From: Amycolatopsis sp. CA-230715
Lineage (GTDB): Bacteria > Actinomycetota > Actinomycetes > Mycobacteriales > Pseudonocardiaceae
Assembly: GCF_018736145.1 (NCBI RefSeq)
Contig: NZ_CP059997.1
Span: 1,429,149 to 1,453,148 of the forward strand
Reading direction: 5' to 3'
DNA: 24,000 nucleotides
Below are positions 1,843-16,351 of the stretch, in pieces. A model generated the notes under the pieces. It made no database searches. It was not told where the DNA came from and worked only from the letters and a program-made list of their open reading frames with translations. The translations under genes were made by a program, and so were the position numbers. Within the stretch, counting starts at the first letter, position 1. The number at the start of each line of letters is the position of its first letter.

Positions 1843-1843
1843 C

Positions 1844-4684: not shown

Positions 4685-4742
4685 CTGACCGCACCTCTCC
4701 TTCCGTTCGACCGCGGAATCGCGGTGGGGCAAGCGGAAGCGC

Positions 4743-5207: not shown

Positions 5208-5226
5208 GGCGCATCTCCTTTCGAAT

Positions 5227-5257: not shown

Positions 5258-5258
5258 G

Positions 5259-5885
5259 TCACCGAGAACGCGTCGAACCACCAGCGGCGAGCAGGAGGCG
5301 ATGTGCCGCTTTCGCGGCCTTCGCGACGTGTTCGTCGAGCGGCTCGTCCATCGGTGACCCCGCGATGCCCCCGGCCAGTTCCGTCACGGCCTCGTACAAG
5401 CGCGTGACACTCGCTTCCAGGTCGGCGAGGCGCGTGTCGTCCAGGTGTTCGTCGCGCACCGCGGGCTGGCCGGTGAGCTTGGCCCGCACGGAAGCGGGGA
5501 AGACCGCCAGTGCGTGGCCGAGCTGGCCAGGGGAAAACCGGTCGCCGAGCGCGGTGGTCACCGCGACCGCGACCCGGTCCACATCACCGATTTCGATGTC
5601 CGCCTCGATCGCGAACCGCCGCTGGAACTCCTCGCCGTCGAACTCGGCAGGCACCCGGTTCGGCCGCCAGCCCTCGAAGTAGAGACCACGCAGGAGGGTC
5701 GGGAGCTGAGCGGCGAGGTGCGCGGCGGAATGCACGCTCAACCGGTCGCGGACCACGTGGAGCCATGCCCGCAGCGCGCGGTAGGCGAAGTCGCGGTCCT
5801 CGGTGCCCAGTTCGGTGCGCACCTGGCCCAGCCAGTCACGAGCGGTCCGTTCTGCTTGCGCGATCGCGTCCTGTCGGTGTGGCAT
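5259..5885 (-). CDS. DUF2267-like protein
   Basis: MPHRQDAIAQAERTARDWLGQV..AYRALRAWLHVVRDRLSVHSAAHLAAQLPTLLRGLYFEGW resembles the DUF2267 helical repeat. ATG 5885 has GAGGAG 5 nt upstream. The longer track ORF (to 6038) adds an Arg/Pro-rich tail with no SD. Confidence 0.7.
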   Translation of the reverse strand: MPHRQDAIAQAERTARDWLGQVRTELGTEDRDFAYRALRAWLHVVRDRLSVHSAAHLAAQLPTLLRGLYFEGWRPNRVPAEFDGEEFQRRFAIEADIEIGDVDRVAVAVTTALGDRFSPGQLGHALAVFPASVRAKLTGQPAVRDEHLDDTRLADLEASVTRLYEAVTELAGGIAGSPMDEPLDEHVAKAAKAAHRLLLAAGGSTRSR

Positions 5886-5968
5886 GTCGTCTCCTCGCCG
5901 CCAGACTCGTTCCTGGCTCCAGGGTCGACCGCGCGCCCGGCGGCAGGAAGGGCTCTTCGGGAGCGGGG

Positions 5969-5988
5969 CCGGGGACCTTCGTCCATTC
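5969..5988. promoter_or_regulatory. DosR/DevR-box-like palindrome in the divergent promoter region
   Basis: ccgGGGACcttcGTCCattc compared with the M. tuberculosis consensus TTSGGGACTWWAGTCCCSAA. It matches 12/20 by eye with the GGGAC-N4-GTCC geometry intact. It lies between divergent starts 5885(-) and 6093(+). Confidence 0.5.
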
Positions 5989-6092
5989 ACGCCACGACCG
6001 GTGGGCCGAGACGCATCCGGTGGTTCCTTCGTCGCCACCGCGAAGGACCGAATGCCCTACCCGCCGCTACCGGAAGATCGAAGACTCGTTCC

Positions 6093-7340
6093 GTGACCAA
6101 GCGAATCGTGATACTCGGCGGCGGCACCGGCGGCACGGTGGCCGCGAACCGGCTCCGGCGGTCCCTCGGCGGCGGTGCGCACATCACCGTCGTCGACCGC
6201 GACGACGACCACGTCTACCAGCCAGGGCTCCTGTTCGTGCCGTTCGGCCTGGCGGACCCGGAGGACCTCGTACGGTCGCGGCCCCGTCAGCTGCACGACG
6301 GCATCCGCTACCACCGCAGCGACGTGGAACGGGTCGAGGTCGACAAGGAGCTGGTGCACCTCCACGACGGCGCGGTGCTGCCGTACGACGTCCTCGTGAT
6401 CGCCACCGGCGCGCGCCTGATGCCCGAAGAGACCGAAGGGCTCACCGGCGAGGGGTGGCACGAGACCGTGCACACCTTCTACGACCTCGACGGCGCGATG
6501 GCGCTGGGATCCGCGTTGACCGGGTTCACCGAGGGCAGGCTCGTGGTCAACGTGGTCGACCTGCCGATCAAATGTCCCGTGGCACCGCTGGAGTTCTGCT
6601 TCCTCGCCGACTGGTACCTCCGCGAACGCGGTGTCCGCGACGACGTCCAGCTCGTCTACGCCACACCGCTCGACGGCGCGTTCACGAAACCCGTCGCCGC
6701 CCGCACCCTTTCGGGACTGCTGACGGAAAAAGGCATCGAACTGGTGACGGAGTTCACCACCGGCGAGGTCGACGGCGCGGGTAAGCGCCTGGTTTCCTAC
6801 GACGGCCGCGAGCTCGCCTTCGACCTCGCCGTGGTGGTCCCCCCGCACGGCGGCGCGTCCTATGTGGACCGTTCGCCGGGGCTGGGCGACGAGTTCGGTT
6901 TCGTGCCCGCCGACCCGCGGACCTTGCGGGCCAAGGCGCACCCGAACGTCTTCGTCATCGGTGACGCCGCGGCGCTGCCCACGTCGAAGGCCGGTTCGGT
7001 GACCCATTTCGAGGGTGAAGTGCTCGCTCGCAACATCGTCAGCTTCCTGGGCGGGGACGAGCTGGACGGCGAATTCGACGGGCACACGAACTGCTTCATC
7101 GAAAGCGGCTTCGGCAAAGCGCTGCTCATCGACTTCAACTACGACACCGAGCCGCTTCCGGGTCACTTCCCCGCCCCGATCGGCCTGCCGCTGCTCAAGG
7201 AGTCGCGGCTCAACCACCTCGGCAAGCTGATGTTCGCCTGGTGGTACTGGCACGGTCTCCTTCCCGGACGCGACATTCCCGGTGTCTCCGCGTCGATGCC
7301 CCACAGCGGCAAGCACTTTCCCACCACCGCGGACACCTGA
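6093..7340 (+). CDS. FAD-dependent pyridine nucleotide-disulfide oxidoreductase, sulfide:quinone oxidoreductase-like
   Basis: Rossmann motif at the N-terminus (VTKRIVILGGGTGGTVAANRL). Also HVYQPGLLFVP, LPIKCPVAPLEF (SQR-type Cys context), VFVIGDAA and GHTNCFIESG. GTG 6093 is chosen because it sits directly before the GxGxxG motif. The track ORF upstream of it is antisense to the DUF2267 gene. Confidence 0.8.
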   Translation: MTKRIVILGGGTGGTVAANRLRRSLGGGAHITVVDRDDDHVYQPGLLFVPFGLADPEDLVRSRPRQLHDGIRYHRSDVERVEVDKELVHLHDGAVLPYDVLVIATGARLMPEETEGLTGEGWHETVHTFYDLDGAMALGSALTGFTEGRLVVNVVDLPIKCPVAPLEFCFLADWYLRERGVRDDVQLVYATPLDGAFTKPVAARTLSGLLTEKGIELVTEFTTGEVDGAGKRLVSYDGRELAFDLAVVVPPHGGASYVDRSPGLGDEFGFVPADPRTLRAKAHPNVFVIGDAAALPTSKAGSVTHFEGEVLARNIVSFLGGDELDGEFDGHTNCFIESGFGKALLIDFNYDTEPLPGHFPAPIGLPLLKESRLNHLGKLMFAWWYWHGLLPGRDIPGVSASMPHSGKHFPTTADT

Positions 7341-7360
7341 GCCACGAGGAGGAACATCCC

Positions 7361-7678
7361 ATGTCGACCGCTACCTACGCGGGTACCGAAGTCACCGTCA
7401 ACGAAGAAGGCTTCTTCACCGATCCCGCCGCCTGGACCGAGGCGATGGCACCGGAAATCGCCGACGAGGCCGGTATCGCCGAACTCACCGACCAGCACTG
7501 GCAGGTCATCAGGCACGTTCGCCACGAATATACGGAAAAGGGCTCAGGGCCGACCGTTCGGGCATTGGGAAAAACCTCCGGCGTCGGAGTGAAACAGCTC
7601 TACGAACTGTTCCCGAAAGGCCCGGCGAAGCTGGCGGCGAAGATCGCCGGTATCCCGAAGCCACGCGGCTGCATCTGA
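7361..7678 (+). CDS. TusE/DsrC/DsvC-family sulfur relay protein (single C-terminal Cys)
   Basis: The C-terminus [26 protein letters not shown] closely matches the E. coli TusE tail as I remember it ([26 protein letters not shown]). GAGGAGGAA lies upstream of ATG 7361. Confidence 0.9.
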   Translation: [105 protein letters not shown]

Positions 7679-7699
7679 GCCGGAAAAGGAGAAGACATC

Positions 7700-8158
7700 G
7701 TGATCGAAAAAGTTTCCATCATCATCTCGAAAGGTTCGCTGGAAGCCGTCTACCCCGGGCTCATCATGGCCAACGGCGCACGAGCCGAAGGGATCGAGGC
7801 CAACCTGTTCTTCACCTTCTTCGGCCTGGACGCCGTCCACCGAAAGCACCACGACCACATCAGGCTGGCCACCGTCGGCAATCCCGGCCTCCACCTCCCG
7901 ACCCTGGCCGGCGCCCTGCCCGGCGTTTCCGCGGCGATGACGGCCTACCTGGCCAAGAAGATGGCGAAGCTGGATATCCCGCCCATCCCGGAGTTCATCG
8001 AAATGATCTCCGATACCGGCGCCGGGCTCTACGCGTGCAAGGCCTCGGTCGACCTGTTCGAGCTGGCCAAGGACGACCTGATCGAGCAGGTGCAGGACAT
8101 CATCACGGTCGGCGAGTTCTACGACAAGGCGGACGGCGGCCAGATCGTCTTCACCTGA
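7700..8158 (+). CDS. DsrE/DsrF-like family protein (COG2210-type)
   Basis: 152 aa. Motifs KVSIIISKGSLE, ANLFFTFFGLD and GAGLYACKASVDLF (conserved Cys context). GTG start with AAAGGAGAAG upstream. Confidence 0.8.
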   Translation: MIEKVSIIISKGSLEAVYPGLIMANGARAEGIEANLFFTFFGLDAVHRKHHDHIRLATVGNPGLHLPTLAGALPGVSAAMTAYLAKKMAKLDIPPIPEFIEMISDTGAGLYACKASVDLFELAKDDLIEQVQDIITVGEFYDKADGGQIVFT

Positions 8159-8169
8159 AAGCCGCGAAT

Positions 8170-8208
8170 CCCCGTGCCCGGCCTCGTGCGACGAGGCCAG
8201 GCACGGGG
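8170..8208. terminator. bidirectional intrinsic-terminator-like hairpin between convergent genes
   Basis: CCCCGTGCCCGGCCTCGT (8170-8187) pairs with ACGAGGCCAGGCACGGGG (8191-8208) across a 3-nt loop, 17 of 18 bp. It lies between the stop codons at 8158(+) and 8221(-). Confidence 0.7.
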
Positions 8209-8220
8209 ATCTTCCGTGTG

Positions 8221-9018
8221 TCAGGCAGGCGGGGCGATCAGGCCGTAGTGCCCGTCGTAGCGCCGGTAGAGGACGCTCCCCCGCTCGTTCTCGGTGTCGA
8301 CGAAAAACACGAACGGCATCTCCGACATCGTCAACCGCGTGATGGCCTCGGTGACCGGCAACCGGACAGCGGGGTGCTCGCTCACCGTCAGCGATACCCC
8401 GGTCTGAGGGATTTCCTCGGGTACCGGCCGGACCTGCGCCAGCCGGTAGCCGTCCGGGGTGCGGTACAGCACGCTGTCCTGGCCCGTGGTGTTTTCGACG
8501 AACAGGTGGAAGGCGTAGTCCATCGAGTCCATCTCGTCCGCGGCCTCGTCGACCGAGCACGCGGCAAGCGTGAAAGCCTTGTGCCGCACGATTTGGCACT
8601 CCTCTTCCGGTCTGGGGAAGAAGGCCGGCCGAGCCGATCGCTCGGACCCGTGGCGCCACGAGCCAGGATGCGGCCATCGGCCCCGCCTGGCTTCCCACCG
8701 GGTCGACGACTTCGCCAATCGCGTGCGCAGCCGTTCGCACAACTCGTCCACCGCGCCGGCCACCGTGGCCGCGGCGGCCTGCGCGCGCACGGCCCGGCCG
8801 CGCAGCCGTACGTTCGCCTGGGCCACCACGCGGCGCTCGCGCGTCGGGTCTCGCTGCTCGGTCACTCGCACGCGCGCGTCGAGCACGGGCTTCGGCGCAT
8901 GGCCGAGGCTCTCCATGACGCGGTCACGGGCGTGCTCCCCGGCGCCGGGGAGGGTGCCTCGTACGGTCACCCGCACGTCGGTTTCTGTGTTGATCGTCGT
9001 CTCTCGCACATCGACCAC
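8221..9018 (-). CDS. long hibernation-promoting-factor-like protein (Rv0079/DATIN-like: S30AE domain plus C-terminal dimerisation domain)
   Basis: The C-terminal MDYAFHLFVENTTGQDSVLYR...MPFVFFVD..GSVLYRRYDGHYGLIAP parallels the Rv0079 and long-HPF C-domains. The N-terminal DVRVTVRGTLPGAGEHARDRVMESL is S30AE-like. The start is uncertain: GTG 9018, GTG 9009 or ATG 9132. The last would overlap the kinase gene by 46 nt. Confidence 0.75.
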   Translation of the reverse strand: MVDVRETTINTETDVRVTVRGTLPGAGEHARDRVMESLGHAPKPVLDARVRVTEQRDPTRERRVVAQANVRLRGRAVRAQAAAATVAGAVDELCERLRTRLAKSSTRWEARRGRWPHPGSWRHGSERSARPAFFPRPEEECQIVRHKAFTLAACSVDEAADEMDSMDYAFHLFVENTTGQDSVLYRTPDGYRLAQVRPVPEEIPQTGVSLTVSEHPAVRLPVTEAITRLTMSEMPFVFFVDTENERGSVLYRRYDGHYGLIAPPA

Positions 9019-9043
9019 GATGTCCGCCCGGTCCCCGTGCCGG

Positions 9044-9063
9044 CTGGGGTCCAAAGACCCGTC
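9044..9063. promoter_or_regulatory. DosR-box-geometry palindrome just upstream of the HPF-like gene
   Basis: ctgGGGTCcaaaGACCCgtc has 5-bp inverted arms with a 4-nt spacer and matches the DosR consensus 14/20 by eye, with A/T swapped at positions 7 and 14. It sits in the 68-nt gap between the kinase stop (9087) and the GTG 9018/9009 starts. Confidence 0.4.
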
Positions 9064-9086
9064 TTCGGCGGAATTGGTCTGCTCGC

Positions 9087-9878
9087 TCAGTCCGTCGCGG
9101 GGACGTGGGGTTGCGGGAGGGGAACTCGCCATTCGAGCCGGGTTCCGGCTCCGGGCTCGCTGGTGATGGAAAAGCCGCCATCGTGGATCTGAGCCCGCTC
9201 GCGCATGTTGCGCAGGCCGCTGGAGCGCGTGGTGGTGCCGAGGCCCCGCCCGTTGTCGCTGACGCGGAGGACCAGTTCGTCGCCGACCGCGAGACTGAGC
9301 TCGGCCTTGGTGGCGTGGGCGTGACGGGCGAGATTGGACAGCGCCTCACGGGTGACGGCCAGCAGGTCGGCGGCGATGTGGTCCGGCACCGCGGCGTCGA
9401 TGGGGCCCGCGAAGCTGACGGTGGGGCTGAAACCGAGGTTGTCGTCGGCTTCGGCGATCAGGTCCGCGAGCTGGATGCGCAAGCTCACCGCTTCTTGTGG
9501 GTGGTCGTGGAGGCCGAAGATCGCGGTGCGCAGGTCCCGGACCGTGGCGTCGAGTTCGCCGATCACCGTCCGCACCCGCTCGGCCGCGCGCGGGTTCCGG
9601 ATCAGTGCCGCGCTGCCCTGCAGGATCAGGCCCGCGCTGAAGACGCGTTGGATGACCTGGTCGTGCAGATCGCGCGCGATCCGGTCGCGTTCGGCCAGTA
9701 CCGCGTTTCTCGCCCACGCCCGCGCTTCGGCGTCACGTGCGGCTTCGAGTTCGGTGTGCAACGCGATGATGCCGCGGTTGGTGGTGTCGAGTTCCTCGGT
9801 GAGGTCGGCGATGCGCTGGTGCGCGGCAGCGAGCTCCGCCCGCGTACTCGACGGCTCGTGGTCTTCCGGTTCGCTCAT
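9087..9878 (-). CDS. soluble HisKA_3-type histidine kinase with no recognisable sensor domain (short N-terminal coiled coil only)
   Basis: H-box ERDRIARDLHDQVIQRVFSAGL, N-box REALSNLARHAHA, G1 SDNGRGL and G2 GLRNMRERA..GG. About 50 residues of helical sequence precede the H-box, with no TM, PAS or GAF. ATG 9878 overlaps the upstream stop (ATGA). Confidence 0.85.
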   Translation of the reverse strand: MSEPEDHEPSSTRAELAAAHQRIADLTEELDTTNRGIIALHTELEAARDAEARAWARNAVLAERDRIARDLHDQVIQRVFSAGLILQGSAALIRNPRAAERVRTVIGELDATVRDLRTAIFGLHDHPQEAVSLRIQLADLIAEADDNLGFSPTVSFAGPIDAAVPDHIAADLLAVTREALSNLARHAHATKAELSLAVGDELVLRVSDNGRGLGTTTRSSGLRNMRERAQIHDGGFSITSEPGAGTRLEWRVPLPQPHVPATD

Positions 9879-10885
9879 CGGTCGCCCCCTGCCGTGGCTT
9901 CGCCGGTGTCCTTGACGACGAGCACCGCGGCGTCGTCGTTGCCCCTGGCGTGATCGCGGTGCACCACGGCGGCGATCACAGCCGGGTCGTGGCGCAGCAG
10001 ACCGGGCCAGCGGGCCGGATCCCATCGCGTGTCGATGCCGTCGGAGGTCAGCACCGCGGTGGACCCCGCTGGCCAGGTGCGGATGGCCGGGTGCGGCCGG
10101 GGCGGCCGCAGGGAAGTGCCGAGCGTCCCATGCTGGCCGAGCACCTGATGGTGGTCCGAACCGGTGAGGACCCGGCAGGTGATGTTGCCGACCCCGACGA
10201 AGGAGAGTCTGCTTTCGCCCGGCTCGATCCAGCAGAGTCCGAGGACGCCGCCGCGGGTGCCCCGCATCGCTTCGTGGGCGCGCCGGGGAAAGTCGGTGAG
10301 CCAGTTGTCCGCAGCCCGCTGCCGTTCGAACGCTTCGACCGCCGCACCGGCCGCCGCGGCGGCTTCCGGTCCATGGCCGAGGCCGTCGACCACCAGCGCC
10401 GCCACATCCGATTCGACAGCGGCGACGGCCCAAGCGTCCCCGCTGGCACCGGCACCGCCGAGCGGGACGGTGACCCCGCCCCACCGCCACCGCCCGGCGC
10501 CCGACTCCGCGGCCCGGATGCGGACGAGGACGACCGTCCCGGACCGCGTGGAGTAGGTGTCGAAGACCGACGCGCGGCGCCGGACACCGGCCAGACCCAC
10601 CCCGAGCCCGCCCGCCCTCGGCGGGCCCGGTTCGTCCGGCATACCGGGGCCGTGGTCCACCGCGAGCAGTTCGAGCCCGCCGCCGGTCGGCCGGGTGAGC
10701 ACGTACCCGCCGGCGGTGTGCCGAAGGATGTTCGTGGCGAGTTCCGTCGCGACAAGTTCGGCATCCCCGTCGGGCAGGCCGGGCAGCGTGCTCGCTTCGG
10801 CGGCCATCGCCCGGCGGAGCACGCCGACGTCTTCGACGACGCGGACCGGGTACCGCCGGTGCGTCGTGCTCATCACCGCGCCCAT
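9875..10885 (-). CDS. fusion of an RsbW/RsbT-like HATPase domain with a PP2C/SpoIIE-type phosphatase (RsbX position of a stressosome operon)
   Basis: N-terminal half: ELATNILRH, VDHGPGMP, GGLGVGLAGV. C-terminal half: SGDAWAV..ALVVDGLGHGPEAA, VLTSDGI, GNDDAAVLVV, which are PP2C metal-ligand contexts. Start is ATG 10885, GTG 10876 or ATG 10873; the last two overlap the RsbT-like stop. Confidence 0.85.
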   Translation of the reverse strand: MGAVMSTTHRRYPVRVVEDVGVLRRAMAAEASTLPGLPDGDAELVATELATNILRHTAGGYVLTRPTGGGLELLAVDHGPGMPDEPGPPRAGGLGVGLAGVRRRASVFDTYSTRSGTVVLVRIRAAESGAGRWRWGGVTVPLGGAGASGDAWAVAAVESDVAALVVDGLGHGPEAAAAAGAAVEAFERQRAADNWLTDFPRRAHEAMRGTRGGVLGLCWIEPGESRLSFVGVGNITCRVLTGSDHHQVLGQHGTLGTSLRPPRPHPAIRTWPAGSTAVLTSDGIDTRWDPARWPGLLRHDPAVIAAVVHRDHARGNDDAAVLVVKDTGEATAGGDR

Positions 10886-11295
10886 TTGGTGATCGTGACC
10901 GTGGTCCCCGATTCTCCGGTGACGATCGTCAGCTCGTCGACGAGCCGTTTGGAGCCCGGCAGACCCAGCCCGAGGCTGCCGCTGGTGGAGTAGCCGTCGG
11001 TCAGCGCCGCTTCCACGTCCGCGATACCGGGGCCGTCGTCGGTGAACACCGCCCGCACCCCGCGGCGCCCCGGCTCGCGCACCTGCTCGACCCGCAGCAC
11101 ACCGCGCGCACCGGTGGCGTAGGTCAGGATGTTGCGGGTCAGCTCGCTGCCCGCGGTGATCAGCTTCGTCGAATCGACGAGGCCGAGCCCCGCCTCCTCG
11201 GCGTGCGCGCGCAACGACTGGCGCACCCGGATGAGATCGGCTTCGGTGGCGATCGCCACCGAAGCCCGACCGGTCTCAGTCAGCTCCGTAGCCAT
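10873..11295 (-). CDS. rsbT: RsbT-like serine/threonine kinase (anti-sigma regulatory factor family)
   Basis: About 140 aa. Motifs ITAGSELTRNILTYA, FTDDGPGI and GLGLGLPGSKRLVDEL. It sits directly after the RsbS-like gene with a 20-nt overlap (or 35 nt if ATG 11310 is used). Confidence 0.85.
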   Translation of the reverse strand: MATELTETGRASVAIATEADLIRVRQSLRAHAEEAGLGLVDSTKLITAGSELTRNILTYATGARGVLRVEQVREPGRRGVRAVFTDDGPGIADVEAALTDGYSTSGSLGLGLPGSKRLVDELTIVTGESGTTVTITKWAR

Positions 11296-11671
11296 CGCCA
11301 CGCACCGCATCGTCGCGAAGCCGCCGCAGCAGGGCCAGCCCCTGCTCCGCGTTCAGCGCCGTGTCCAGGTGCCCCATCGGGATACCCAGTTCGACCAGGG
11401 TGATCGCCACAGCGGGGGCGATCCCCACGATCGCCGCCTGCGCACCGAGCAACCGGATCATGCCCACCACCCTGGCCAGCACCCTGGCGATGAACGAATC
11501 GACCACCGTCAGCCCGCTCACGTCGATCAGCACGCCCGCCGCCTGGGTGCGCGCCACCTCCTCGGTCAGGTGCTGCTCGATGCGCACCACCGTGGCGTCG
11601 TCCAGATCGCCCTGCAAGGTGACGAGCAGGGTGTCACCGATCTGCAGGATCGGCACCGCCACCTCGCTCAC
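11276..11671 (-). CDS. rsbS: RsbS-like single-STAS protein
   Basis: VSEVAVPILQIGDTLLVTLQGDLDD...GVLIDVSGLTVVDSFIARVL..GIAPAVAITLVELGI aligns by eye along its whole length with B. subtilis RsbS, including the DSF serine. The GTG start forms a GTGA overlap with the RsbR-like stop (11668-11671). Confidence 0.85.
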   Translation of the reverse strand: MSEVAVPILQIGDTLLVTLQGDLDDATVVRIEQHLTEEVARTQAAGVLIDVSGLTVVDSFIARVLARVVGMIRLLGAQAAIVGIAPAVAITLVELGIPMGHLDTALNAEQGLALLRRLRDDAVRGDGYGAD

Positions 11672-12879
11672 GCCCGGCCACCGGTCACGTTCCTGGCGAT
11701 TTCGTCCGCTTCGCCCGCCCTTTCCCGCAGGATCCGCAAGGCGAGCTGGAGCGCGTCCCGCAGCGTGTTCCGGCTGCGCAGCCGCCCGAGGTCGATACCG
11801 AGGTGCACGATCGCTTGCGCGGTCTCCGGTCGGACACCGCTCACGATGCTCACCGCCCCCATCAAATTGGCCGCCTGCACGGTTTTGAGCAGGTGCTGGG
11901 CGACCAGAGTGTCCACTGTGGGCACACCGCTGATATCGAGGATGACGACTTCGGCCCGCAGCTCGGCGATGTTCTCGAGCAGGCTTTCGGTCAACCGCAT
12001 CGCCCGCCCGGAATCCAGGGTGCCGATGATCGGCAACGCGATCACCTTGTCCCACACCTGGATCACCGGTGTGGACAGCTCCATGATCTCGTCCCGCTGC
12101 TGCCGCAGCCGCGCTTCCTGTTCGCGGCGTTCGGTGACATCCCGGATCGCGGCGCACACCTGCGGCCCCTGATCGGTTTCCAGCGGGCTCAGGCTGATTT
12201 CGACCGGGAACTCGGTGCCATCGCGGCGCACGCCGAGCAGGTCGAGGCCCACGCCCATCGGACGCACCGCGGGCGCGGCGAGAAACCCGTCGCGGTGGCG
12301 GACGTGGCGCTGGTGCAGCCGTTGCGGGACGAGGATTTCGATCGGCTGGCCGACCAGTTCGTCGCGCGGGAACCCGAACAACCGCTCCGCCTGCCGGTTG
12401 ACCAGCGTGATCCGCCCGTCCGGCCCCGCGATCACCATCGCGTCCGGCGCGGATTCCAGCAGGGCCCGGAACATCGACTCGTCCGAGCGCCGTTCCGTCA
12501 CGTCCCTGGTCAGCGTGGCGAAACCGGTCACGGCGCCGTCGTCGTCCAGGATCGGCGCCGCGACCACGTTGGCCCGGAACCGGCCGCCGTCCTTGCGCAC
12601 GCGCCAGCCCTCGACCTCGACCCGGCCGCCCGCGGTGGCGGCGTCCAGGTCCTGCCGGTCACGACCGGCGGCGCGGTCTTCTTCCGTGTACAGCACGGAC
12701 ACCGACCGGCCCCGGATCTCCTCGGCCGCGTACCCCGTCAGTGCTTCGGCGCCGGAACCCCAGTCGACGACGGTCCCGGAAGCGTCCAGCCGGATGAGTC
12801 CGTCCCCGGCGAGCATCGCCACCGCTTCGAGCTCCCGCACGCGCGACCCTGGATCGGATCTCGCCGACGCCCCGTCCAT
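11668..12879 (-). CDS. rsbR: RsbR-like stressosome sensor: PAS-PAS-STAS
   Basis: Two PAS domains, each ending in DVTERR. The C-terminal STAS reads ELSTPVIQVWDKVIALPIIGTLDSGRA...VILDISGVPTVDTLVAQHL, matching the RsbR C-domain. ATG 12879 has GGGAGG 5 nt upstream. The track GTG at 12900 would contain that SD. Confidence 0.85.
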   Translation of the reverse strand: MDGASARSDPGSRVRELEAVAMLAGDGLIRLDASGTVVDWGSGAEALTGYAAEEIRGRSVSVLYTEEDRAAGRDRQDLDAATAGGRVEVEGWRVRKDGGRFRANVVAAPILDDDGAVTGFATLTRDVTERRSDESMFRALLESAPDAMVIAGPDGRITLVNRQAERLFGFPRDELVGQPIEILVPQRLHQRHVRHRDGFLAAPAVRPMGVGLDLLGVRRDGTEFPVEISLSPLETDQGPQVCAAIRDVTERREQEARLRQQRDEIMELSTPVIQVWDKVIALPIIGTLDSGRAMRLTESLLENIAELRAEVVILDISGVPTVDTLVAQHLLKTVQAANLMGAVSIVSGVRPETAQAIVHLGIDLGRLRSRNTLRDALQLALRILRERAGEADEIARNVTGGRA

Positions 12880-12964
12880 GCAGACCTCCCGATCCGGCAC
12901 GCCCTTCCGCGTGGCGCCCCGAATGCTATCGGCCGAAGCTCCGCCCGCACACCCGCCGGCCGGT

Positions 12965-13915
12965 CTACCTCCAGTCCTCGCGGTAGTCAGCGGTGGACGG
13001 GATGCGCAAGGGCGCCGCGGCGGGCGCCACGGGATACCCGACGCGCAGGATCAGCTGGGGAAAACCGGCCAGTCCGAGCTGGTCGACGAGGTCGGAGCGC
13101 ACCTCGGGCAGTTTCAGCGGCTGGGTCAGCACTGACGCCGCGAGGCCCCGTGCGACGGCGGTCAGCCAGACGCGCTGCATCGCGGCTCCGGCCCGCACCT
13201 GGTCCCGCCTGGTGTCGTCGCCGGTCACCAGTACCAGCAATCCTTCACGCGCCAGCCGCTCTGCCAGCGTGACGGTGTCCGGGAGGTGCGTGCTGGAGCG
13301 CACCAGACCCGCCCACGGCAGGCTGGCCCTGGCAGCACCCGGCTCCGGGACCGACGGCATCCACGCGGCCAGTTCCCGTTGGTAGGCGCGGTCTTCCCTC
13401 AGCACGGCGCCGGCGTGGGCGAGCAGCTCCGCCAGCCCGGTCGATTCGCGACGGGGATCGATCACCCGAGCCCACGTTCCGCCATCGCGGGCGATCTCGG
13501 TCAGCAAGCGCAACTCGTGCGCGGAAACTCGGTCGAGACGGAACGGAGCCCGGTGGCTGCGACGGCGGAAGAGCGCCGTGTAGCGCTCGTCCTCGACGGC
13601 GGTGGTGTCCTGACGAGTGGACGTTTCCAGCCTGGCCACCAAGTTCGGCCGTCGGTCGTCGGGGAACACCGACACCGCGGCATCCCGGCCGAGTGCTCGC
13701 ACGGCGAGATGGAGGTTGGCCACCGCTGCACCGCAGGAAATCATCCGGTCGCGTCCCGCGGGGTCGTGCCGCGGCAAGGCGGCGGTGGTCCGTTCGTGGA
13801 GTTCGGCCGTGCCCGTATCGGTTTCCAGCACCCAGGGCTGGGTGTTGTGCACCGACGGCGCGTGGCTGATGGCTCGCGCCAGGATGCCGATCTCGATCGC
13901 CGACCACTCGATCAT
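12965..13915 (-). CDS. Acg-family (Rv2032/Rv3131-like) FMN-binding nitroreductase-fold protein
   Basis: 316 aa. Motifs [11 protein letters not shown] near the N-terminus, [21 protein letters not shown], and a C-terminal second nitroreductase-like half (QRVWLTA...LILRVGYP). Confidence 0.85.
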
Positions 13916-14065
13916 GGCGTCTCCTGCTCCTGGTCGCGCTGACGACCCTCTCCGCGAATGGCTTGTCCTGCGGTGCTTCCAGCGTCGTTTGCCAGGTCCG
14001 GGCCGGACAGAGCCGCCCGCCCTCGACCCGAGGGCCGAAGTGCCTTCCGGGTGGAGCCCCTCGGC

Positions 14066-14136
14066 GAGATGACCTTGGTCCCTTCGGCAGGGGACCTTCG
14101 CCGTGCCGGAACTCGCCCGGAGTCTTTAGCCTGGAA
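14066..14136. promoter_or_regulatory. cluster of three DosR-box-like sites in the acg-like/dosR divergent region
   Basis: Site 14066-14085 is gagatGACcttgGTCCCttc. Site 14088-14107 is cagGGGACcttcGccgtgcc. Site 14117-14136 is ccGGaGtCTTTAGcCtgGAA. By eye they match TTSGGGACTWWAGTCCCSAA at 11, 11 and 13 of 20 positions. The last lies about 40 nt before the dosR GTG. Confidence 0.45.
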
Positions 14137-14175
14137 CACGGCAAGCTGGCAGCGTCTGAGAGAGGCAGTGTCTTC

Positions 14176-14823
14176 GTGATCAAGGTGTTCCTGGTCGACG
14201 ACCACGAGATCGTCCGGCGCGGAGTGGCCGAGCTGCTGGAGTCCGATCCCGAGCTGTCGGTGATCGGCGAAGCGGGATCGGTGGGGCACGCGCTGGCCCG
14301 GATCCCGGCGCTGCGACCGGACATCGCCGTGCTCGACGTCCGGTTGCCCGACGGCAACGGCATCGAGCTGTGCCGCGAGCTGCGGTCCAAACTGCCCGAG
14401 CTGAACTGCCTAATGCTGACCACGTTCACCGACGAACAGGCCATGCTCGACGCGATCCTCGCCGGCGCCGGTGGTTACGTGATCAAGGACATCCAGGGCA
14501 TGCGGCTGGTGGCCGCGGTCCGCGAGGTCGCGTCCGGCAAGTCACTGCTGGACAACCGGGCGGCCGCGACGCTGATGGCCAAGCTCAGGGCAGGCATCGA
14601 AGCGAACACCGGGCCGACATCCGGGTTAAGCGAGCAGGAGCGCACCCTGCTCGACCTGATCGGCGAAGGCTTGACCAACCGGCAGATCGCGGCGCGGATG
14701 TACCTCGCGGAGAAGACGGTCAAGAACTACGTCTCGCGGCTGCTCACCAAGCTCGGCATGGAACGCCGCACCCAGGCCGCCGTACTGGCCACCGAGTTGC
14801 GCGGCAAGCGTTCCGAGCACTGA
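14176..14823 (+). CDS. dosR: DosR/DevR-type NarL-family response regulator
   Basis: [36 protein letters not shown]...[20 protein letters not shown]...[16 protein letters not shown]...[16 protein letters not shown]...[53 protein letters not shown] is near-colinear with M. tuberculosis DosR (Rv3133c) as I remember it. GTG 14176 matches the MVKVFLVDD start of DosR. Confidence 0.9.
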
Positions 14824-14875
14824 CACGATGCTGTCGCACTGACCGCCGCGACTTCCGGGTGCCCGTGGCCGTCCA

Positions 14876-14895
14876 GTAGGGACGTTGGTCCCCAC
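14876..14895. promoter_or_regulatory. DosR-box-like palindrome upstream of ldh
   Basis: gtaGGGACgttgGTCCCcac has both GGGAC and GTCCC arms intact with a 4-nt spacer, 15/20 to consensus by eye. It is the best box in the window, about 115 nt upstream of ATG 15010. Confidence 0.65.
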
Positions 14896-15009
14896 CGGTG
14901 TGCGGAAGACTCGGCGGATCAACGTCCACAAAGGACGATCGTGCGGCGTTCGACCGGTCTCTCGTCGAAGCCGGGTGGACGGTCGGCCACCCCGGCGAGG
15001 AGAAACCAC

Positions 15010-15984
15010 ATGGTCCAGTTGTTCCCGGCGCATTCGGCGCCCCGCAACACCAAGGTCGCGATCGTCGGGGCGGGCGCGGTCGGCGCCACCATCGCCTACG
15101 CGTGCCAGATCCACGGCGTGGCGCACACGATCGCGCTCTACGACACCAACGCCACGAAAGTGCGCGCGCAGGCGCTGGATCTGGCCCACGGCAGCATGTT
15201 CACGCCCACGACCGAGGTCGTGGGCAGTGCCGACGTCGGTGTCTGCGCCGACGCCGACGTCGTGGTGATCACCGCGGGCGCCAAGCAGAAACCCGGCCAG
15301 GACCGGATGGCACTCGCCGGGGACAACGTCGCACTGTGCCGTGACCTCGTGCCGCGGCTGCTGGCGGTGGCACCGGAGGCGATCCTGGTCCCGGTCACCA
15401 ATCCGGTCGACGTGGTCACCCGGGCGGTGCTCACCTTCAGCGGGCTGCCCGCGCGGCGGGTCGTCGGCTCCGGCACCGTGCTGGACTCCTCGCGGCTCCG
15501 GATGCTGATCTCCGAGCACTCCGGCGTCGGCACGCCGAGCGTGCGCGCCTACATCGCGGGCGAGCACGGGGACAGTGCCGTCCCGCTGTGGTCCGGCGCG
15601 TTCCTCGGCTCGGTCCCGATCTCGGACTGGAAGACCGATGGCGCGCCGGGTTTCCCCGACGAGATACGAACCGCCATCAAGCACGCGGTGACCAACGCCG
15701 CGTACGAAGTGATCGCGGGCAAGGGCGCCACCAGCTACGCCATCGGCCTCGCCGTCGCCTACGTCCTGGACACGATCCTCGGCGACCAGCGCCTCATCCT
15801 GCCCGTCACCAGCCTCGTCGAGGACTTCCACGGCATCACGAACGTGTGCCTGTCCCTGCCCCGCCTGCTGGACCGTTCCGGCGCGGGTGCCGTGGTGCCC
15901 TTACCGCTGGCACCGGACGAACTCGACCAGCTCCGGGCGTCCGCGGAAAAGATCCGTGCCCTGTGCCACGAGTTCGGCCTGTGA
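15010..15984 (+). CDS. ldh: L-lactate dehydrogenase
   Basis: KVAIVGAGAVGATIAYA (NAD Rossmann), VVITAGAKQKPGQDR, PVTNPVDV, VVGSGTVLDSSRLR and YIAGEHGDS (catalytic His context). ATG 15010 has GAGGAG upstream. The track start at 14941 adds an Arg/Ser-rich tail. Confidence 0.9.
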   Translation: MVQLFPAHSAPRNTKVAIVGAGAVGATIAYACQIHGVAHTIALYDTNATKVRAQALDLAHGSMFTPTTEVVGSADVGVCADADVVVITAGAKQKPGQDRMALAGDNVALCRDLVPRLLAVAPEAILVPVTNPVDVVTRAVLTFSGLPARRVVGSGTVLDSSRLRMLISEHSGVGTPSVRAYIAGEHGDSAVPLWSGAFLGSVPISDWKTDGAPGFPDEIRTAIKHAVTNAAYEVIAGKGATSYAIGLAVAYVLDTILGDQRLILPVTSLVEDFHGITNVCLSLPRLLDRSGAGAVVPLPLAPDELDQLRASAEKIRALCHEFGL

Positions 15985-16004
15985 GACACGACCGGGAGGC
16001 GACG

Positions 16005-16241
16005 ATGACCGGGAACCGGGACCACGGGGCGGACAGGATCCGCGCGACCGCGGTGGTCGAGCGCTACGCGCGAGACCCCGCCGAGTTGGCGGAGCTGCTG
16101 GACATGCTGGGCCTCCTGAGCCGGCCAGAGGACCGCGCACCGGCACCCGCGCGCGGCGGGCCAGGGCGGCGGTTGCTGATCAGCGAGCTGGCCGCGATGG
16201 TCTCCGCACAGCGCCCACCGGCCGCGGCACCCCACTGTTGA
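16005..16241 (+). CDS. small hypothetical protein (78 aa) coupled to ldh
   Basis: ATG 16005 lies 20 nt after the ldh stop, with GGGAGG 6 nt upstream. Third positions are strongly G/C. I recognise no family. Confidence 0.5.
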   Translation: MTGNRDHGADRIRATAVVERYARDPAELAELLDMLGLLSRPEDRAPAPARGGPGRRLLISELAAMVSAQRPPAAAPHC

Positions 16242-16351
16242 CCTCTCCGCGACCGCGCTCGGGATCACCCGGATCTGCGCCCGACCGCTGCGAGCAGGGG
16301 GCATCGGGCGTGATCGGTGAACGCCACGGGCGAGGGCTGCTGATGCGCGGG

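What the first reader, a model, noticed from the sequence alone, without database searches (positions are those of the whole stretch)
9087..12879. Stressosome-type RsbR/RsbS/RsbT/phosphatase module joined directly to a histidine kinase output
Five consecutive minus-strand genes are joined by overlapping start and stop codons:
- GTGA at 11668-11671.
- A 20-nt overlap at 11276-11295.
- TGATG/GTGA at 10873-10876.
- ATGA at 9875-9878.

The encoded proteins, in order, are PAS-PAS-STAS (RsbR-like), single STAS (RsbS-like), an RsbT-like kinase, a HATPase-PP2C fusion, and a HisKA_3 kinase.

The RsbS-like protein keeps the VDSF serine. The RsbR-like STAS keeps TLDSGRA and VDTLVA. As I recall, these correspond to the RsbT-phosphorylated residues of B. 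subtilis RsbS (S59) and RsbRA (T171/T205).

No RsbU/RsbV/RsbW/sigma-B-type partner-switching genes appear in the window, so the read-out seems to be two-component phosphotransfer rather than sigma-factor release. Non-sigma outputs of RsbRST modules are known, for example the Vibrio globin-RsbR module next to a two-component system. An actinobacterial PAS-type version embedded in a dormancy island would be a distinct, essentially uncharacterised wiring.
Basis: partly seen in the sequence, partly recalled or inferred. Interest (0 to 1): 0.85.

Follow-up and report, generated by a model that had tools for sequence, protein, structure and literature searches.

The report
Stressosome module wired to DosR-type kinase
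An Amycolatopsis operon encodes a stressosome-like sensor (RsbR, RsbS, RsbT and a reset phosphatase) fused in one transcription unit to a sensor-less DevS-type histidine kinase beside the dormancy regulator DosR; it is an untested variant of a known signalling kit and shows a conserved helix that may be how such kits talk to kinases.

Summary
Five minus-strand genes (9087-12879) with overlapping stops and starts encode:
- a PAS-PAS-STAS RsbR
- a single-STAS RsbS
- an RsbT kinase
- an RsbX-type PP2C carrying an extra RsbT-like ATPase domain
- a 263-aa HisKA_3 kinase with no sensor domain

All three phospho-acceptor positions are kept. The source is Amycolatopsis sp. CA-230715.

The block is neither rare nor actinobacterial. 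R-S-T directly precede the ATPase-PP2C gene in 76 of 82 loci from many phyla, and the next gene is a histidine kinase in 75 of 77.

These kinases share an unannotated helix, EL-E-E-TN-R-G-V-V-AL-Y-x-EL (window residues 29-45). In the model it runs unbroken into the phospho-accepting His72. In other lineages it sits directly behind a fused RsbT-like domain. I propose it is the docking site for released RsbT, analogous to RsbU_N.

The kinase core is DevS/DosT-like. A 72%-identical DosR lies 4.3 kb away, amid nitroreductases, USP, HPF and fermentation genes. PAS2 aligns with FixL and keeps the haem-binding histidine.

Verdict: new variant of a known kind. Gene identities are solid. The signal, the docking and the DosR target are inferred.

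The parts
11668..12879 (-). Gene 1, RsbR-like co-antagonist/sensor (403 aa, QWF77979.1). PAS1 is about aa 26-132, PAS2 about aa 136-258 (FixL-like), linker helix plus STAS about aa 260-385. Key residues: His192 (nt 12304-12306), Ser290 (nt 12010-12012), Thr324 (nt 11908-11910).
   Evidence: - Domains: Pfam PAS x2 plus STAS.
- STAS identity: matches RsbR of solved stressosomes 7o0i, 7b0u and 6qcm at E 1e-29 to 1e-31.
- PAS2: matches B. japonicum FixL haem-PAS at E 1e-21 to 1e-23, with His192 on the proximal His200.
- Phospho-acceptor conservation in orthologues.
- Exact protein found in NCBI.
11276..11671 (-). Gene 2, RsbS-like single-STAS scaffold (131 aa, GTG start overlapping the gene-1 stop). 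Ser59 is at nt 11495-11497.
   Evidence: - Pfam STAS.
- Best solved relatives are RsbS of B. subtilis (6jhk, E 3.5e-28), Listeria (6qcm, E 1.6e-27) and Moorella MtS (2vy9, E 8e-22).
- Ser59 aligns with the phosphorylated serine of the IDSF motif.
10873..11295 (-). Gene 3, RsbT-like GHKL serine kinase (140 aa), with a 20-nt overlap with gene 2.
   Evidence: - Pfam HATPase_c_2 and HATPase_c.
- No solved homologue detectable by sequence.
- Present directly upstream of the gene-4 homologue in 76 of 82 loci.
9875..10876 (-). Gene 4, RsbX-type PP2C phosphatase (about aa 140-325) with an N-terminal RsbT-like GHKL ATPase domain (about aa 1-125).
   Evidence: - Pfam SpoIIE plus weak HATPase_c/HATPase_c_2.
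- PP2C matches Moorella MtX (3zt9, E 1e-15) and B. subtilis RsbX (3w40) by sequence.
- PP2C matches the same two by fold: TM 0.89 and 0.79 normalised to the target.
- AF2 model has pLDDT 90 and pTM 0.90.
- ATP-binding motifs (E45, N49, H53; D74-x-G76; G90...G94-L95) and PP2C metal ligands (D147, D164, D314, D315) are invariant in 28 homologues.
9087..9878 (-). Gene 5, sensor-less DevS-type histidine kinase (263 aa, QWF77975.1). N-terminal helix with the conserved motif ELDTTNRGIIALHTELE (aa 29-45, nt 9744-9794). HisKA_3 with His72 (nt 9663-9665). HATPase_c about aa 171-255.
   Evidence: - Pfam HisKA_3 plus HATPase_c; nothing matches aa 1-62.
- The ATP-binding domain best matches M. tuberculosis DevS (3zxo, E 7e-20), DosT (3zxq) and 8sbm.
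- JGI names many homologues DevS.
- The AF2 model has one unbroken helix over aa 10-92.
- The motif is shared with the fifth gene of 70 of 83 loci.
14176..14823 (+). DosR/DevR orthologue (REC plus GerE/LuxR HTH), transcribed away from the operon. This is the proposed cognate regulator of gene 5. The start is set at GTG 14176 by alignment with M. tuberculosis DevR.
   Evidence: - Pfam Response_reg plus GerE.
- E 6.5e-96 to M. tuberculosis DevR 3c3w.
- 72% identity over 211 residues.
12965..13915 (-). Acg-type nitroreductase-family gene, 85 nt upstream of gene 1 on the same strand. Possibly the first gene of the same transcript, starting from the promoter region shared with dosR.
   Evidence: - Pfam Nitroreductase.
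- Same RR / nitroreductase / R-S-T-X-kinase order in a close relative, L004.
- Nitroreductase genes near the block in several Streptomyces loci.
8221..9132 (-). Long hibernation-promoting-factor gene directly after the kinase on the same strand. With ATG 9132 it overlaps the kinase 3' end by 46 nt; TTG 9054 is an alternative start.
   Evidence: - Pfam Ribosomal_S30AE plus S30AE_C.
- An HPF gene also flanks the block in S. pluripotens and in L014.
14879..14892 (.). Perfect DosR-box-like palindrome GGGACGTTGGTCCC, 49 nt upstream of the ldh ORF start. Weaker candidates lie at 9047-9060 (GGGTCCAAAGACCC, after the kinase stop) and 14069-14082 (dosR/nitroreductase intergenic region).
   Evidence: Pattern searches. 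The count is not above shuffled expectation (3 found versus 3.0 expected), so these are candidates only. The consensus used comes from my own knowledge of the M. tuberculosis DosR box.

Best explanation
**What it is.** This is an rsbR-rsbS-rsbT-rsbX stressosome-type input module translationally coupled to its own output, a sensor-less histidine kinase of the DevS/DosT (HisKA_3, NarL-family) type.

**Proposed working.**
- The PAS-PAS-STAS RsbR and the single-STAS RsbS form a STAS core that sequesters the RsbT-like serine kinase.
- A signal is read by the RsbR PAS domains. I favour O2, NO or redox acting through a haem on the FixL-like PAS2. The signal lets RsbT phosphorylate RsbS Ser59 and RsbR Ser290/Thr324 and dissociate.
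- Free RsbT binds the N-terminal polar-core coiled coil of the kinase dimer, the ELxxTNRGxxALHxEL helix, which runs straight into the His72 helix. Binding switches autophosphorylation.
- The kinase then transfers phosphate to the adjacent DosR orthologue, which controls the surrounding hypoxia/dormancy genes.
- The gene-4 protein resets the system by dephosphorylating the STAS proteins. Its RsbT-like N-domain probably targets it to the same docking surface on the core.

**Shown.** Gene structure, domain identities, conserved catalytic and acceptor residues, conservation of the five-gene order, the shared helix motif, and the DosR-regulon-like context.

**Inferred.** Particle assembly, the nature of the signal, RsbT-helix docking, the sign of regulation, and DosR as the phosphoacceptor.

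**Confidence by step.** About 0.9 that this is an RsbRST-X module with a kinase output, about 0.45 for RsbT-helix docking, about 0.5 for DosR as the target, and about 0.45 for haem/gas sensing. The single figure given covers the statement as a whole.
For: **Gene identities.** (detailed under the parts).

**Unit conservation.**
- R, S and T lie directly upstream of the ATPase-PP2C gene in 76 of 82 loci from many phyla. Five of the six exceptions lack upstream genes without contradicting the order: four lie close to a contig end (L005, L028, L047, L083) and in L035 only the RsbT hit was missed. Median gaps are -4 to +4 nt.
- The next gene is a histidine kinase in 75 of 77 loci: 52 HisKA and 23 HisKA_3. 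One locus has a GGDEF protein instead. None has RsbU_N.

**Output helix.**
- The motif is present in the fifth gene in 70 of 83 loci, plus a DADHG variant in 3 Streptomyces loci.
- It lies at the extreme N-terminus of short kinases, before PAS-HisKA_3 in actinobacteria, and before PAS-GGDEF in a Mycolicibacterium locus.
- In larger kinases it lies immediately after a fused GHKL domain. That domain scores as RsbT rather than as the gene-4 N-domain: 92-120 versus 52-76 bits in 11 of 15 cases, and lower scores with the same ranking in the other four. This is a domain-fusion hint that RsbT and the helix act together.
- No Pfam model covers the helix.
- Three of three motif-first hits lie right after RsbR-STAS-HATPase_c_2 clusters.
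- The AF2 model of gene 5 has one helix over aa 10-92, through the motif to His72. The d positions are I23, L30, I37 and L44; the a positions are T27, N34 and H41 (read from the sequence).
- Precedent: RsbT activates RsbU by rigidifying a dimeric coiled-coil linker, and the same logic has been proposed for kinases and GGDEF proteins (PMC12143880).

**DosR link.**
- The regulator is 72% identical to DevR.
- The kinase ATP-binding domain is closest to DevS and DosT. Homologues are named DevS by JGI.
- Window genes: two nitroreductases, long HPF, USP, LDH, PFOR, Ack and ADP-forming ACS. Rv2632c-like, XFP and a further USP lie just beyond the window.
- The same block sits among DosR-regulon-type genes in S. 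pluripotens and Streptomyces sp. WMMC500, and between narGHJI and a NiFe-hydrogenase cluster in another Streptomyces.

**Signal.**
- PAS2 aligns end to end with FixL, with the proximal His conserved.
- That His lies in the motif LVPxRFRxRHxGHRxGF in 24 of 24 orthologues carrying this PAS type.
- Haem-based O2-sensing stressosomes exist in Vibrio (PMC4976288 by its title; PMC9237108).
Against: - No experiment exists on any member of this subclass. Particle formation and phosphorylation are unverified.
- The FixL distal Arg220 and haem-propionate Arg206 are not conserved (Leu and Gly), so haem binding is uncertain.
- A DosR-like regulator lies within 10 kb in only about 5 of roughly 25 actinobacterial loci. 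The kinase and dosR are not in one operon here, and the 10-Mb genome may hold a canonical GAF-type DevS.
- DosR-box-like sites are not enriched over shuffles.
- For the Vibrio system, the authors could not detect an RsbT-kinase interaction and suggested transient phosphorylation instead (PMC9237108).
- The helix could be an ordinary signalling helix whose conservation reflects common descent of these kinases rather than docking.
- The gene-4 ATPase domain, rather than RsbT, could be the partner of the helix.
- The B. subtilis RsbT reference sequence was recalled from memory.
Confidence: 0.55

Rival explanations
1. The module is a genuine RsbRST-X input, but its real output is a distant RsbU-like phosphatase or SigB/SigF-type partner-switching cascade, as in Mycobacterium marinum. 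The adjacent kinase would be a co-located but independent gene.
For: - In M. marinum the RsbRST module is reported to feed SigF through RsbUW and RsbV (PMC8115616).
- Actinomycete genomes hold many SigB homologues and RsbW/RsbV paralogues (PMC8346170).
- The rest of the 10-Mb genome was not examined.
Against: - The kinase start overlaps the gene-4 stop (ATGA).
- A kinase follows in 75 of 77 loci across phyla.
- The kinases carry a motif found, in three of three reverse look-ups, only next to such modules.
- The coding-like ORFs I scanned in the window show no sigma factor, RsbV, RsbW or RsbU.
- M. marinum RsbR is a different, PAS-less 298-aa protein.
Confidence: 0.08
2. Signal transfer to the kinase is by phosphorylation, not docking. 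RsbT, or the gene-4 ATPase domain, would phosphorylate the conserved Thr33 of the ETN motif, or another residue of the kinase, in a transient encounter.
For: - The Thr of the TN pair is invariant in the 38- and 69-sequence motif alignments.
- RsbT is a Ser/Thr kinase.
Against: - Three Streptomyces loci carry DADHG in place of E-x-TN-x-G, with no Thr or Ser at that position, yet keep the rest of the helix.
- Thr33 lies next to the coiled-coil core (N34 at an a position), a poor kinase substrate if the helix is paired.
- The fusion of an RsbT-like domain directly to the helix suggests stable proximity rather than a hit-and-run reaction.
Confidence: 0.15
3. The kinase does respond to the module but signals to a NarL-type regulator other than the neighbouring DosR. 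DosR would be served by a canonical GAF-GAF DevS elsewhere, and the adjacency would reflect co-regulation within a hypoxia island rather than a cognate pair.
For: - Most actinobacterial loci have no regulator next to the block.
- dosR is on the other strand, 4.3 kb away, and is followed by ldh, not by a kinase.
- Orphan HisKA_3 kinases are common.
Against: - Gene 5 is the only kinase in the window and in the about 6.8 kb of a relative's contig beyond its right edge.
- Its catalytic domain is closest to DevS and DosT.
- The DosR adjacency recurs in Amycolatopsis and four Streptomyces lineages.
- In the loci that lack a regulator, the flanking genes are still anaerobic-respiration genes.
Confidence: 0.25
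4. The proteins form only a small partner-switching set (STAS antagonists, kinase, phosphatase), not a stressosome particle. RsbT, or the gene-4 ATPase domain, would be an inhibitor held on the kinase helix and pulled off by unphosphorylated STAS proteins, which reverses the sign of control.
For: - Nothing here tests assembly or sign.
- 7 of 25 PAS-less homologues of gene 5 have lost the phospho-accepting His but keep the helix. This shows that helix-mediated binding can be the sole function.
- Many STAS/GHKL/PP2C sets act as simple switches.
Against: - RsbS and the RsbR STAS are far closer to particle-forming RsbS and RsbR than to SpoIIAA or RsbV-type antagonists: E 1e-27 to 1e-31 versus 2e-4.
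- The R-S-T gene order and both classes of acceptor residue match stressosomes.
- The M. marinum orthologues interact as R-S-T complexes.
Confidence: 0.15

Closest known systems
Bacillus subtilis / Listeria monocytogenes stressosome (RsbRA-RsbS-RsbT, RsbX feedback phosphatase, output RsbU-RsbV-RsbW-SigB)
   Same: - R-S-T gene order.
- RsbS and RsbR STAS domains at E 1e-27 to 1e-31.
- Ser59 and both RsbR acceptor positions are kept.
- RsbT is 46% identical.
- The phosphatase is of RsbX type.
   Different: - The sensor is PAS-PAS instead of a non-haem globin.
- The phosphatase gene follows rsbT directly and carries an extra RsbT-like ATPase domain.
- There is no RsbU, RsbV, RsbW or sigma factor.
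- The output is a histidine kinase without an RsbU_N domain.
Vibrio vulnificus / V. brasiliensis O2-sensing stressosome (globin-coupled RsbR, rsbRSTX plus two-component proteins D1/D2)
   Same: - A minimal rsbRSTX module with no sigma factor.
- A two-component output encoded immediately downstream.
- The output lacks RsbU_N.
- A haem-based gas sensor is plausible (PMC9237108).
   Different: - The sensor is a FixL-like PAS, not a globin.
- Vibrio RsbX is described as a single-domain PP2C, whereas this one has an ATPase domain.
- The output here is a short HisKA_3 kinase paired with a DosR-type regulator, not a PAS hybrid kinase.
- Whether Vibrio D1 has the ETNxG helix was not tested.
Moorella thermoacetica MtR-MtS-MtT-MtX with diguanylate cyclase MtG (Quin et al. 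2012)
   Same: - The R-S-T-X order.
- MtX is the best structural match of the gene-4 PP2C (3zt9, 30% identity, TM 0.89).
- MtS matches gene 2.
- The output is not a sigma factor.
   Different: - MtG receives MtT through an RsbU_N-like domain (PMC12143880). Here RsbU_N is absent and a different helix is conserved.
- The output is a kinase rather than a GGDEF protein. A Mycolicibacterium relative of this block does use helix-PAS-GGDEF.
Mycobacterium tuberculosis DosS(DevS)/DosT-DosR dormancy two-component system
   Same: - The regulator is 72% identical to DevR.
- The kinase has a HisKA_3 plus HATPase_c core closest to the DevS and DosT catalytic domains.
- The surrounding gene set resembles the DosR regulon: nitroreductases, USP, HPF and Rv2632c-like here, plus Rv1733c-like in relatives.
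   Different: - The kinase has no GAF-GAF haem sensor and no sensor domain at all.
- It is not in an operon with dosR.
- Sensing is delegated to separate STAS-complex proteins.
Mycobacterium marinum RsbR-RsbS-RsbT (MMAR_5182-...)
   Same: It is an actinobacterial RsbRST module with demonstrated STAS-dependent R-S-T interactions (PMC8115616).
   Different: - M. marinum RsbR is 298 aa without PAS domains.
- Its output is described as SigF through RsbUW and RsbV, not a histidine kinase.

Membership tests
Stressosome / RsbRST(X) module | RsbS: single STAS domain protein with the conserved phosphorylatable serine (B. subtilis Ser59) | tested here: met
   - The 131-aa STAS protein scores E 3.5e-28 to B. 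subtilis RsbS and E 1.6e-27 to Listeria RsbS.
- Ser59 in VDSF aligns with the serine of IDSF.
Stressosome / RsbRST(X) module | RsbR: variable N-terminal sensor, linker helix and C-terminal STAS with two phosphorylatable Thr/Ser (B. subtilis RsbRA Thr171 and Thr205) | tested here: met
   - The STAS region scores E 1e-29 to 1e-31 to RsbR chains of the cryo-EM stressosomes.
- Ser290 and Thr324 align with the two threonines.
- Those positions are S/T in 29/29 and T/S in 28/28 orthologues.
Stressosome / RsbRST(X) module | RsbT: small GHKL serine kinase encoded directly after rsbS | tested here: met
   - HATPase_c_2 domain.
- 46% identity and E 1e-37 to B. subtilis RsbT; the reference was recalled from memory.
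- The N-box and the G1 and G2 boxes are present in the sequence.
- The gene order is conserved.
Stressosome / RsbRST(X) module | RsbX: small PP2C feedback phosphatase | tested here: met
   - The best sequence and fold matches are Moorella MtX (3zt9) and B. subtilis RsbX (3w40).
- The metal-binding Asp residues are invariant.
- An N-terminal ATPase domain is additional and is not part of the classical definition.
Stressosome / RsbRST(X) module | RsbR and RsbS assemble into a pseudo-icosahedral particle of about 1.5-1.8 MDa that sequesters RsbT | not testable with these tools
   This needs purification with size-exclusion chromatography or cryo-EM. Only sequence similarity to particle-forming proteins is available.
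Stressosome / RsbRST(X) module | Released RsbT activates a downstream effector through an RsbU_N-type four-helix-bundle domain | tested here: not met
   - No RsbU_N hit appears in gene 5 or in any of 77 fifth-gene products.
- The same absence is reported for most non-Bacillus modules (PMC9237108).
- A different conserved helix is present instead.
DosS/DosT-DosR (DevS-DevR) system | DosR-type NarL/LuxR-family response regulator | tested here: met
   72% identity and E 6.5e-96 to M. tuberculosis DevR.
DosS/DosT-DosR (DevS-DevR) system | Kinase with tandem GAF domains, with haem in GAF-A | tested here: not met
   - Gene 5 is 263 aa with only HisKA_3 plus HATPase_c.
- None of its 120 closest homologues has a GAF domain.
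DosS/DosT-DosR (DevS-DevR) system | HisKA_3 dimerisation/phosphoacceptor domain and DevS-like catalytic domain with an intact His and N/G boxes | tested here: met
   - HisKA_3 at E 1.6e-10.
- The catalytic domain scores E 7e-20 to DevS 3zxo and 4e-17 to DosT 3zxq.
- His72, the N-box (SNLARHA) and DNGRG are present.
DosS/DosT-DosR (DevS-DevR) system | Kinase phosphorylates DosR; the genes are co-operonic | tested here: not met
   - Phosphotransfer cannot be tested with these tools.
- The co-operonic arrangement is not met: dosR is on the other strand, 4.3 kb away.
FixL/DosP-type haem-PAS sensors | Proximal histidine on the F-alpha helix | tested here: met
   - His192 aligns with B. japonicum FixL His200 in a gap-free alignment.
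- It is conserved in 24 of 24 orthologues with this PAS type.
FixL/DosP-type haem-PAS sensors | Distal and propionate-binding residues (FixL Arg220, Arg206, Ile215/216) and actual haem binding | tested here: inconclusive
   - Arg220 aligns with Leu, Arg206 with Gly, and Ile215/216 with Pro/Met.
- An invariant Arg196 lies four residues after the His.
- Haem binding needs spectroscopy.

The most novel reading that the evidence does not exclude
The ELxxTNRGxxAL(H/Y)xEL coiled-coil helix may be the general receiver for stressosome-released RsbT in over a thousand histidine-kinase clusters, and a few diguanylate cyclases, across bacterial phyla. It would be the long-missing functional counterpart of RsbU_N. 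In this Amycolatopsis and some Streptomyces, a haem-PAS stressosome would use it to drive a sensor-less DevS-type kinase and hence the DosR dormancy regulon. The one-protein gas sensor of mycobacteria would then be replaced by a multi-subunit, resettable sensing particle.
Probability: 0.3. Interest if true: 0.8.

Novelty: new variant of a known kind. Interest (0 to 1): 0.6.

Why it matters
**An open question in stressosome biology.** Outside Bacillus and Listeria, it is not known what stressosomes sense or how released RsbT reaches outputs that lack an RsbU_N domain. The Vibrio authors state that most downstream modules lack that domain and that they could not detect an RsbT-kinase contact.

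**What this locus adds.**
- A large, phylum-spanning subclass of modules is almost always followed by a histidine kinase.
- Those kinases share a short, unannotated helix that leads into the phospho-accepting histidine. In some lineages it is fused to an RsbT-like domain. This gives a concrete surface that can be mutated.

**Relevance to actinomycete physiology.** The locus suggests that the DosR dormancy regulon, studied almost only through the GAF-haem kinases of M. tuberculosis, can be fed by a different, multi-protein sensor with built-in reset. This bears on hypoxia and NO adaptation in antibiotic-producing soil actinomycetes.

If the docking and DosR steps fail, the locus remains an ordinary, unstudied member of the rsbRSTX-plus-two-component class.

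Tried and rejected
- **DosR boxes.** GGGACNNNNGTCCC with up to 2 mismatches gave 27 hits against 37 expected. GGGNCNNNNGNCCC gave 3 against 3.0 expected. There is no enrichment, so only the perfect site before ldh is mentioned, as a candidate.
- **Promoter and terminator scan, 8000-14400.** Nothing was found, which is uninformative in 70% GC DNA.
- **Pfam or RsbU_N on the kinase N-terminus.** Only chance coiled-coil hits appeared at E > 0.01. One database hit carried a precomputed PF26471 label that the local Pfam copy did not reproduce.
- **LOV hypothesis.** NCBIfam gave a sub-threshold YtvA_fam hit, which prompted the idea. I rejected it because neither PAS domain has the GxNCRFLQ cysteine motif (read).
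- **Word-indexed database search with the 49-aa helix profile.** It returned only fragments of 33-86 aa, so no architectures could be read. The exhaustive search was used instead: 1503 cluster representatives at E <= 1e-3. That profile also included the start of HisKA.
- **S. coelicolor SCO7324-7328.** This five-gene operon, related to RsbR/RsbS, looked like a possible orthologue. SCO7325 and SCO7328 are described as RsbV and RsbW homologues acting on SigB-family factors, so I do not equate the two.
- **Left flank of the window.** The look-up of the PFOR gamma subunit found no record. P0028 was also not on record.
- **Multimer prediction of RsbT with the kinase helix.** This was not possible: the tool is single-chain and accepts only restricted inputs.

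Full report
**Observation**

- Reading the reverse strand confirms GTGA at 11668-11671, a 20-nt overlap at 11276-11295, TGATG/GTGA at 10871-10876 and ATGA at 9875-9878.
- Codon-position GC marks three of these frames as coding; the frames of genes 2 and 5 fell below the listing cut-off I used.
- The first and last proteins exist with identical ends in NCBI as QWF77979.1 and QWF77975.1 of Amycolatopsis sp. CA-230715.
- Pfam gives PAS-PAS-STAS, STAS, HATPase_c_2, HATPase_c(_2)-SpoIIE and HisKA_3-HATPase_c.

**Identity of the input module**

- Gene 2 matches RsbS of B. subtilis, Listeria and Moorella at E 1e-22 to 3.5e-28, against 2e-4 for SpoIIAA. Its Ser59 aligns with the phosphorylated serine.
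- The gene-1 STAS region matches RsbR chains of the Vibrio and Listeria stressosome structures at E 1e-29 to 1e-31. Ser290 and Thr324 lie on the two RsbR phospho-threonines. Orthologues carry S/T at both positions without exception.
- Gene 3 is 46% identical over its whole length to B. subtilis RsbT.
- The PP2C half of gene 4 is closest, by sequence and by predicted fold, to the two solved RsbX-type enzymes, Moorella MtX and B. subtilis RsbX.

**Conservation**

- The gene-4 architecture is abundant: 947 database clusters at E <= 1e-5.
- A genome scan seeded with it returned 80 loci from Actinomycetota, several proteobacterial classes, Cyanobacteria, Acidobacteriota, Gemmatimonadota, Bacteroidota, Planctomycetota and others.
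- In 76 of 82 loci, RsbR-STAS, RsbS and RsbT genes lie directly upstream in that order, with median gaps of -4 to +4 nt. Five of the six exceptions lack upstream genes without contradicting the order: four lie close to a contig end and in L035 only the RsbT hit was missed.
- The gene after it is a histidine kinase in 75 of 77 cases: 52 HisKA and 23 HisKA_3. Seventeen are hybrids with a receiver domain. One locus has a GGDEF protein. None has RsbU_N.
- The five-gene block is thus an old, widespread unit. The actinobacterial form differs by its PAS-PAS sensor and its HisKA_3 kinase.

**A conserved output helix**

- The fifth-gene products share a near-invariant segment, consensus L..EL-E-E-TN-R-G-V-V-AL-Y-A-EL-D. 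It is present in 70 of 83 loci, plus a DADHG variant in three Streptomyces.
- Its position varies with architecture:
  - at the extreme N-terminus of about 290-aa proteobacterial kinases, about 20-25 residues before the H-box;
  - before PAS-HisKA_3 in most actinobacteria;
  - before PAS-GGDEF in a Mycolicibacterium locus;
  - in the window's kinase, at residues 29-45, 27 residues before His72.
- In a second class of larger kinases, the helix comes straight after an extra N-terminal GHKL domain. That domain scores higher with an RsbT profile than with a profile of the gene-4 N-domain in all 15 cases; in 11 of them the scores are 92-120 versus 52-76 bits.
- No Pfam model covers the helix.
- A profile of the helix plus the start of HisKA finds 1503 cluster representatives among 1.84 billion.
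- Three motif-first hits on long contigs all sit just after RsbR-STAS-HATPase_c_2 clusters.
- The AF2 model of gene 5 (pLDDT 87) shows a single helix over residues 10-92. The heptad has I23, L30, I37 and L44 at d positions and T27, N34 and H41 at a positions. A polar core of this kind is typical of switchable coiled coils; that last point is my inference.
- RsbT is known to activate RsbU by rigidifying a dimeric coiled-coil linker (PMC12143880). On that basis I propose this helix is where released RsbT acts.

**Link to DosR**

- The regulator at 14176-14823 is 72% identical to M. tuberculosis DevR.
- The kinase catalytic domain is closest to DevS and DosT. JGI labels many homologues DevS, and none of the top 120 has a GAF domain.
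- The window and the about 6.8 kb of a relative's contig beyond its right edge carry two Acg-type nitroreductases, a long HPF, USPs, an Rv2632c-like gene, XFP, LDH, PFOR, acetate kinase, ADP-forming acetyl-CoA synthetase and an SQR-DsrC-DsrE set.
- Relatives show comparable contexts:
  - in S. pluripotens the block lies among XFP, HPF, Rv1733c-like, a DosR-like regulator, GAPDH, USP and nitroreductase genes;
  - in Streptomyces sp. WMMC500 it lies among USP, nitroreductase, DosR-like and Rv1733c-like genes;
  - in another Streptomyces it lies between narGHJI and a NiFe-hydrogenase cluster.
- A regulator is adjacent in only about five lineages. DosR-box-like palindromes are not statistically enriched. 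The pairing is therefore plausible but unproven.

**Signal**

- PAS2 aligns without gaps to the B. japonicum FixL haem domain (E about 1e-21 to 1e-23). His192 falls on the proximal His200, but the distal Arg220 and Arg206 are not kept.
- The surrounding motif LVPxRFRxRHxGHRxGF is present in all 24 orthologues with this PAS type.
- Neither PAS domain has the LOV cysteine.
- I rate haem-based O2/NO/redox sensing at roughly even odds. The Vibrio globin stressosome is a functional precedent (PMC9237108).

**Gene 4**

- The ATP-binding residues of the N-domain and the PP2C metal ligands are invariant in 28 homologues.
- The two domains are predicted as one rigid body (pTM 0.90).
- The Vibrio RsbX is described as a single-domain PP2C. 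I found no description of this fusion in the papers I searched.
- My reading is that the RsbT-like domain targets the reset phosphatase to the STAS core. That is inference.

**Comparison and verdict**

- The locus meets every sequence-testable criterion of an RsbRST-X module. It fails only the RsbU_N criterion, as reported for most non-Bacillus modules.
- It meets the regulator and kinase-core criteria of the DosRST system but not the GAF-sensor or operon criteria.
- It is a new variant of a known kind. The concept of a stressosome input with a two-component output is published. The ATPase-PP2C reset enzyme, the conserved output helix and the DevS-core/DosR context are, as far as the searched literature shows, undescribed.
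- Confidence is high for what the genes are, moderate for RsbT-helix docking, and lower for haem sensing and for DosR as the target.

Noticed in passing
window 9744-9794 (-), aa 29-45 of gene 5; also the fifth genes of L002-L083: A near-invariant helix motif, ELxxTN(R/Q)G(V/L/I)(V/L/I)AL(Y/H)xEL, is found in the gene that follows R-S-T-(ATPase-PP2C) modules across phyla. No Pfam model covers it. A profile finds 1503 cluster representatives.
   Followed up: yes
L046-L049, L052, L058-L060, L066, L069, L072, L073, L079, L083 (fifth gene, first about 150 aa): A second class of output kinases carries a third GHKL domain fused directly in front of the helix motif. It scores as RsbT-like rather than like the gene-4 N-domain. 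RsbT itself is still encoded upstream wherever the upstream region is present.
   Followed up: partly
homologues P0390, P0391, P0395, P0401, P0433, P0436, P0470 (alignment A5): Seven of 25 PAS-less homologues of the window kinase have Gln in place of the phospho-accepting His and degenerate ATP-binding boxes, but they keep the N-terminal helix. They are likely pseudokinases whose only conserved function is partner binding. The window protein keeps His72 and the boxes.
   Followed up: no
window 12304-12306 (-), His192 of gene 1: PAS2 of the RsbR-like protein aligns gap-free with the FixL haem-PAS and keeps the proximal histidine, but not the distal arginine. The motif LVPxRFRxRHxGHRxGF is present in all 24 orthologues that carry this PAS type.
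   Followed up: partly
window 14879-14892; 9047-9060; 14069-14082; 5972-5985; 23888-23901: DosR-box-like palindromes occur at these sites. The perfect one, GGGACGTTGGTCCC, lies just upstream of ldh. Others lie after the kinase stop, in the dosR/nitroreductase intergenic region, and upstream of the SQR-like gene. The total count is not above shuffled expectation.
   Followed up: partly
window 6087-8158 (+): A sulfide:quinone-oxidoreductase-like flavoprotein, a DsrC/TusE-like protein and a DsrE-family protein form a small plus-strand cluster inside the island. This sulfur-handling set is not usually listed with DosR regulons.
   Followed up: no
window 8221-9132 (-): The long HPF ORF, if started at ATG 9132, overlaps the 3' end of the kinase gene by 46 nt. 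TTG 9054 is the only other in-frame start before the S30AE domain. The true start, and whether HPF is co-transcribed with the operon, are open.
   Followed up: no
window about 19112-19594 (+); L087 (about 6.8 kb beyond the right end of the window): A USP gene on the plus strand was missed by my first gene list. Beyond the window lie an Rv2632c-like gene, XFP phosphoketolase and another USP, which extends the dormancy-type island.
   Followed up: partly
L085 (Streptomyces sp. NPDC051985), 1-19023: In this Streptomyces the same five-gene block sits between the respiratory nitrate reductase narGHJI and a hyp/NiFe-hydrogenase cluster, with no response regulator nearby.
   Followed up: no
L029-L083 (non-actinobacterial loci), L088-L090: Outside Actinomycetota the RsbR homologue is about 280-300 aa. 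In the three loci with gene calls it carries an RsbRD_N domain instead of PAS-PAS. The PAS-PAS sensor is therefore the lineage-specific part of the module.
   Followed up: no
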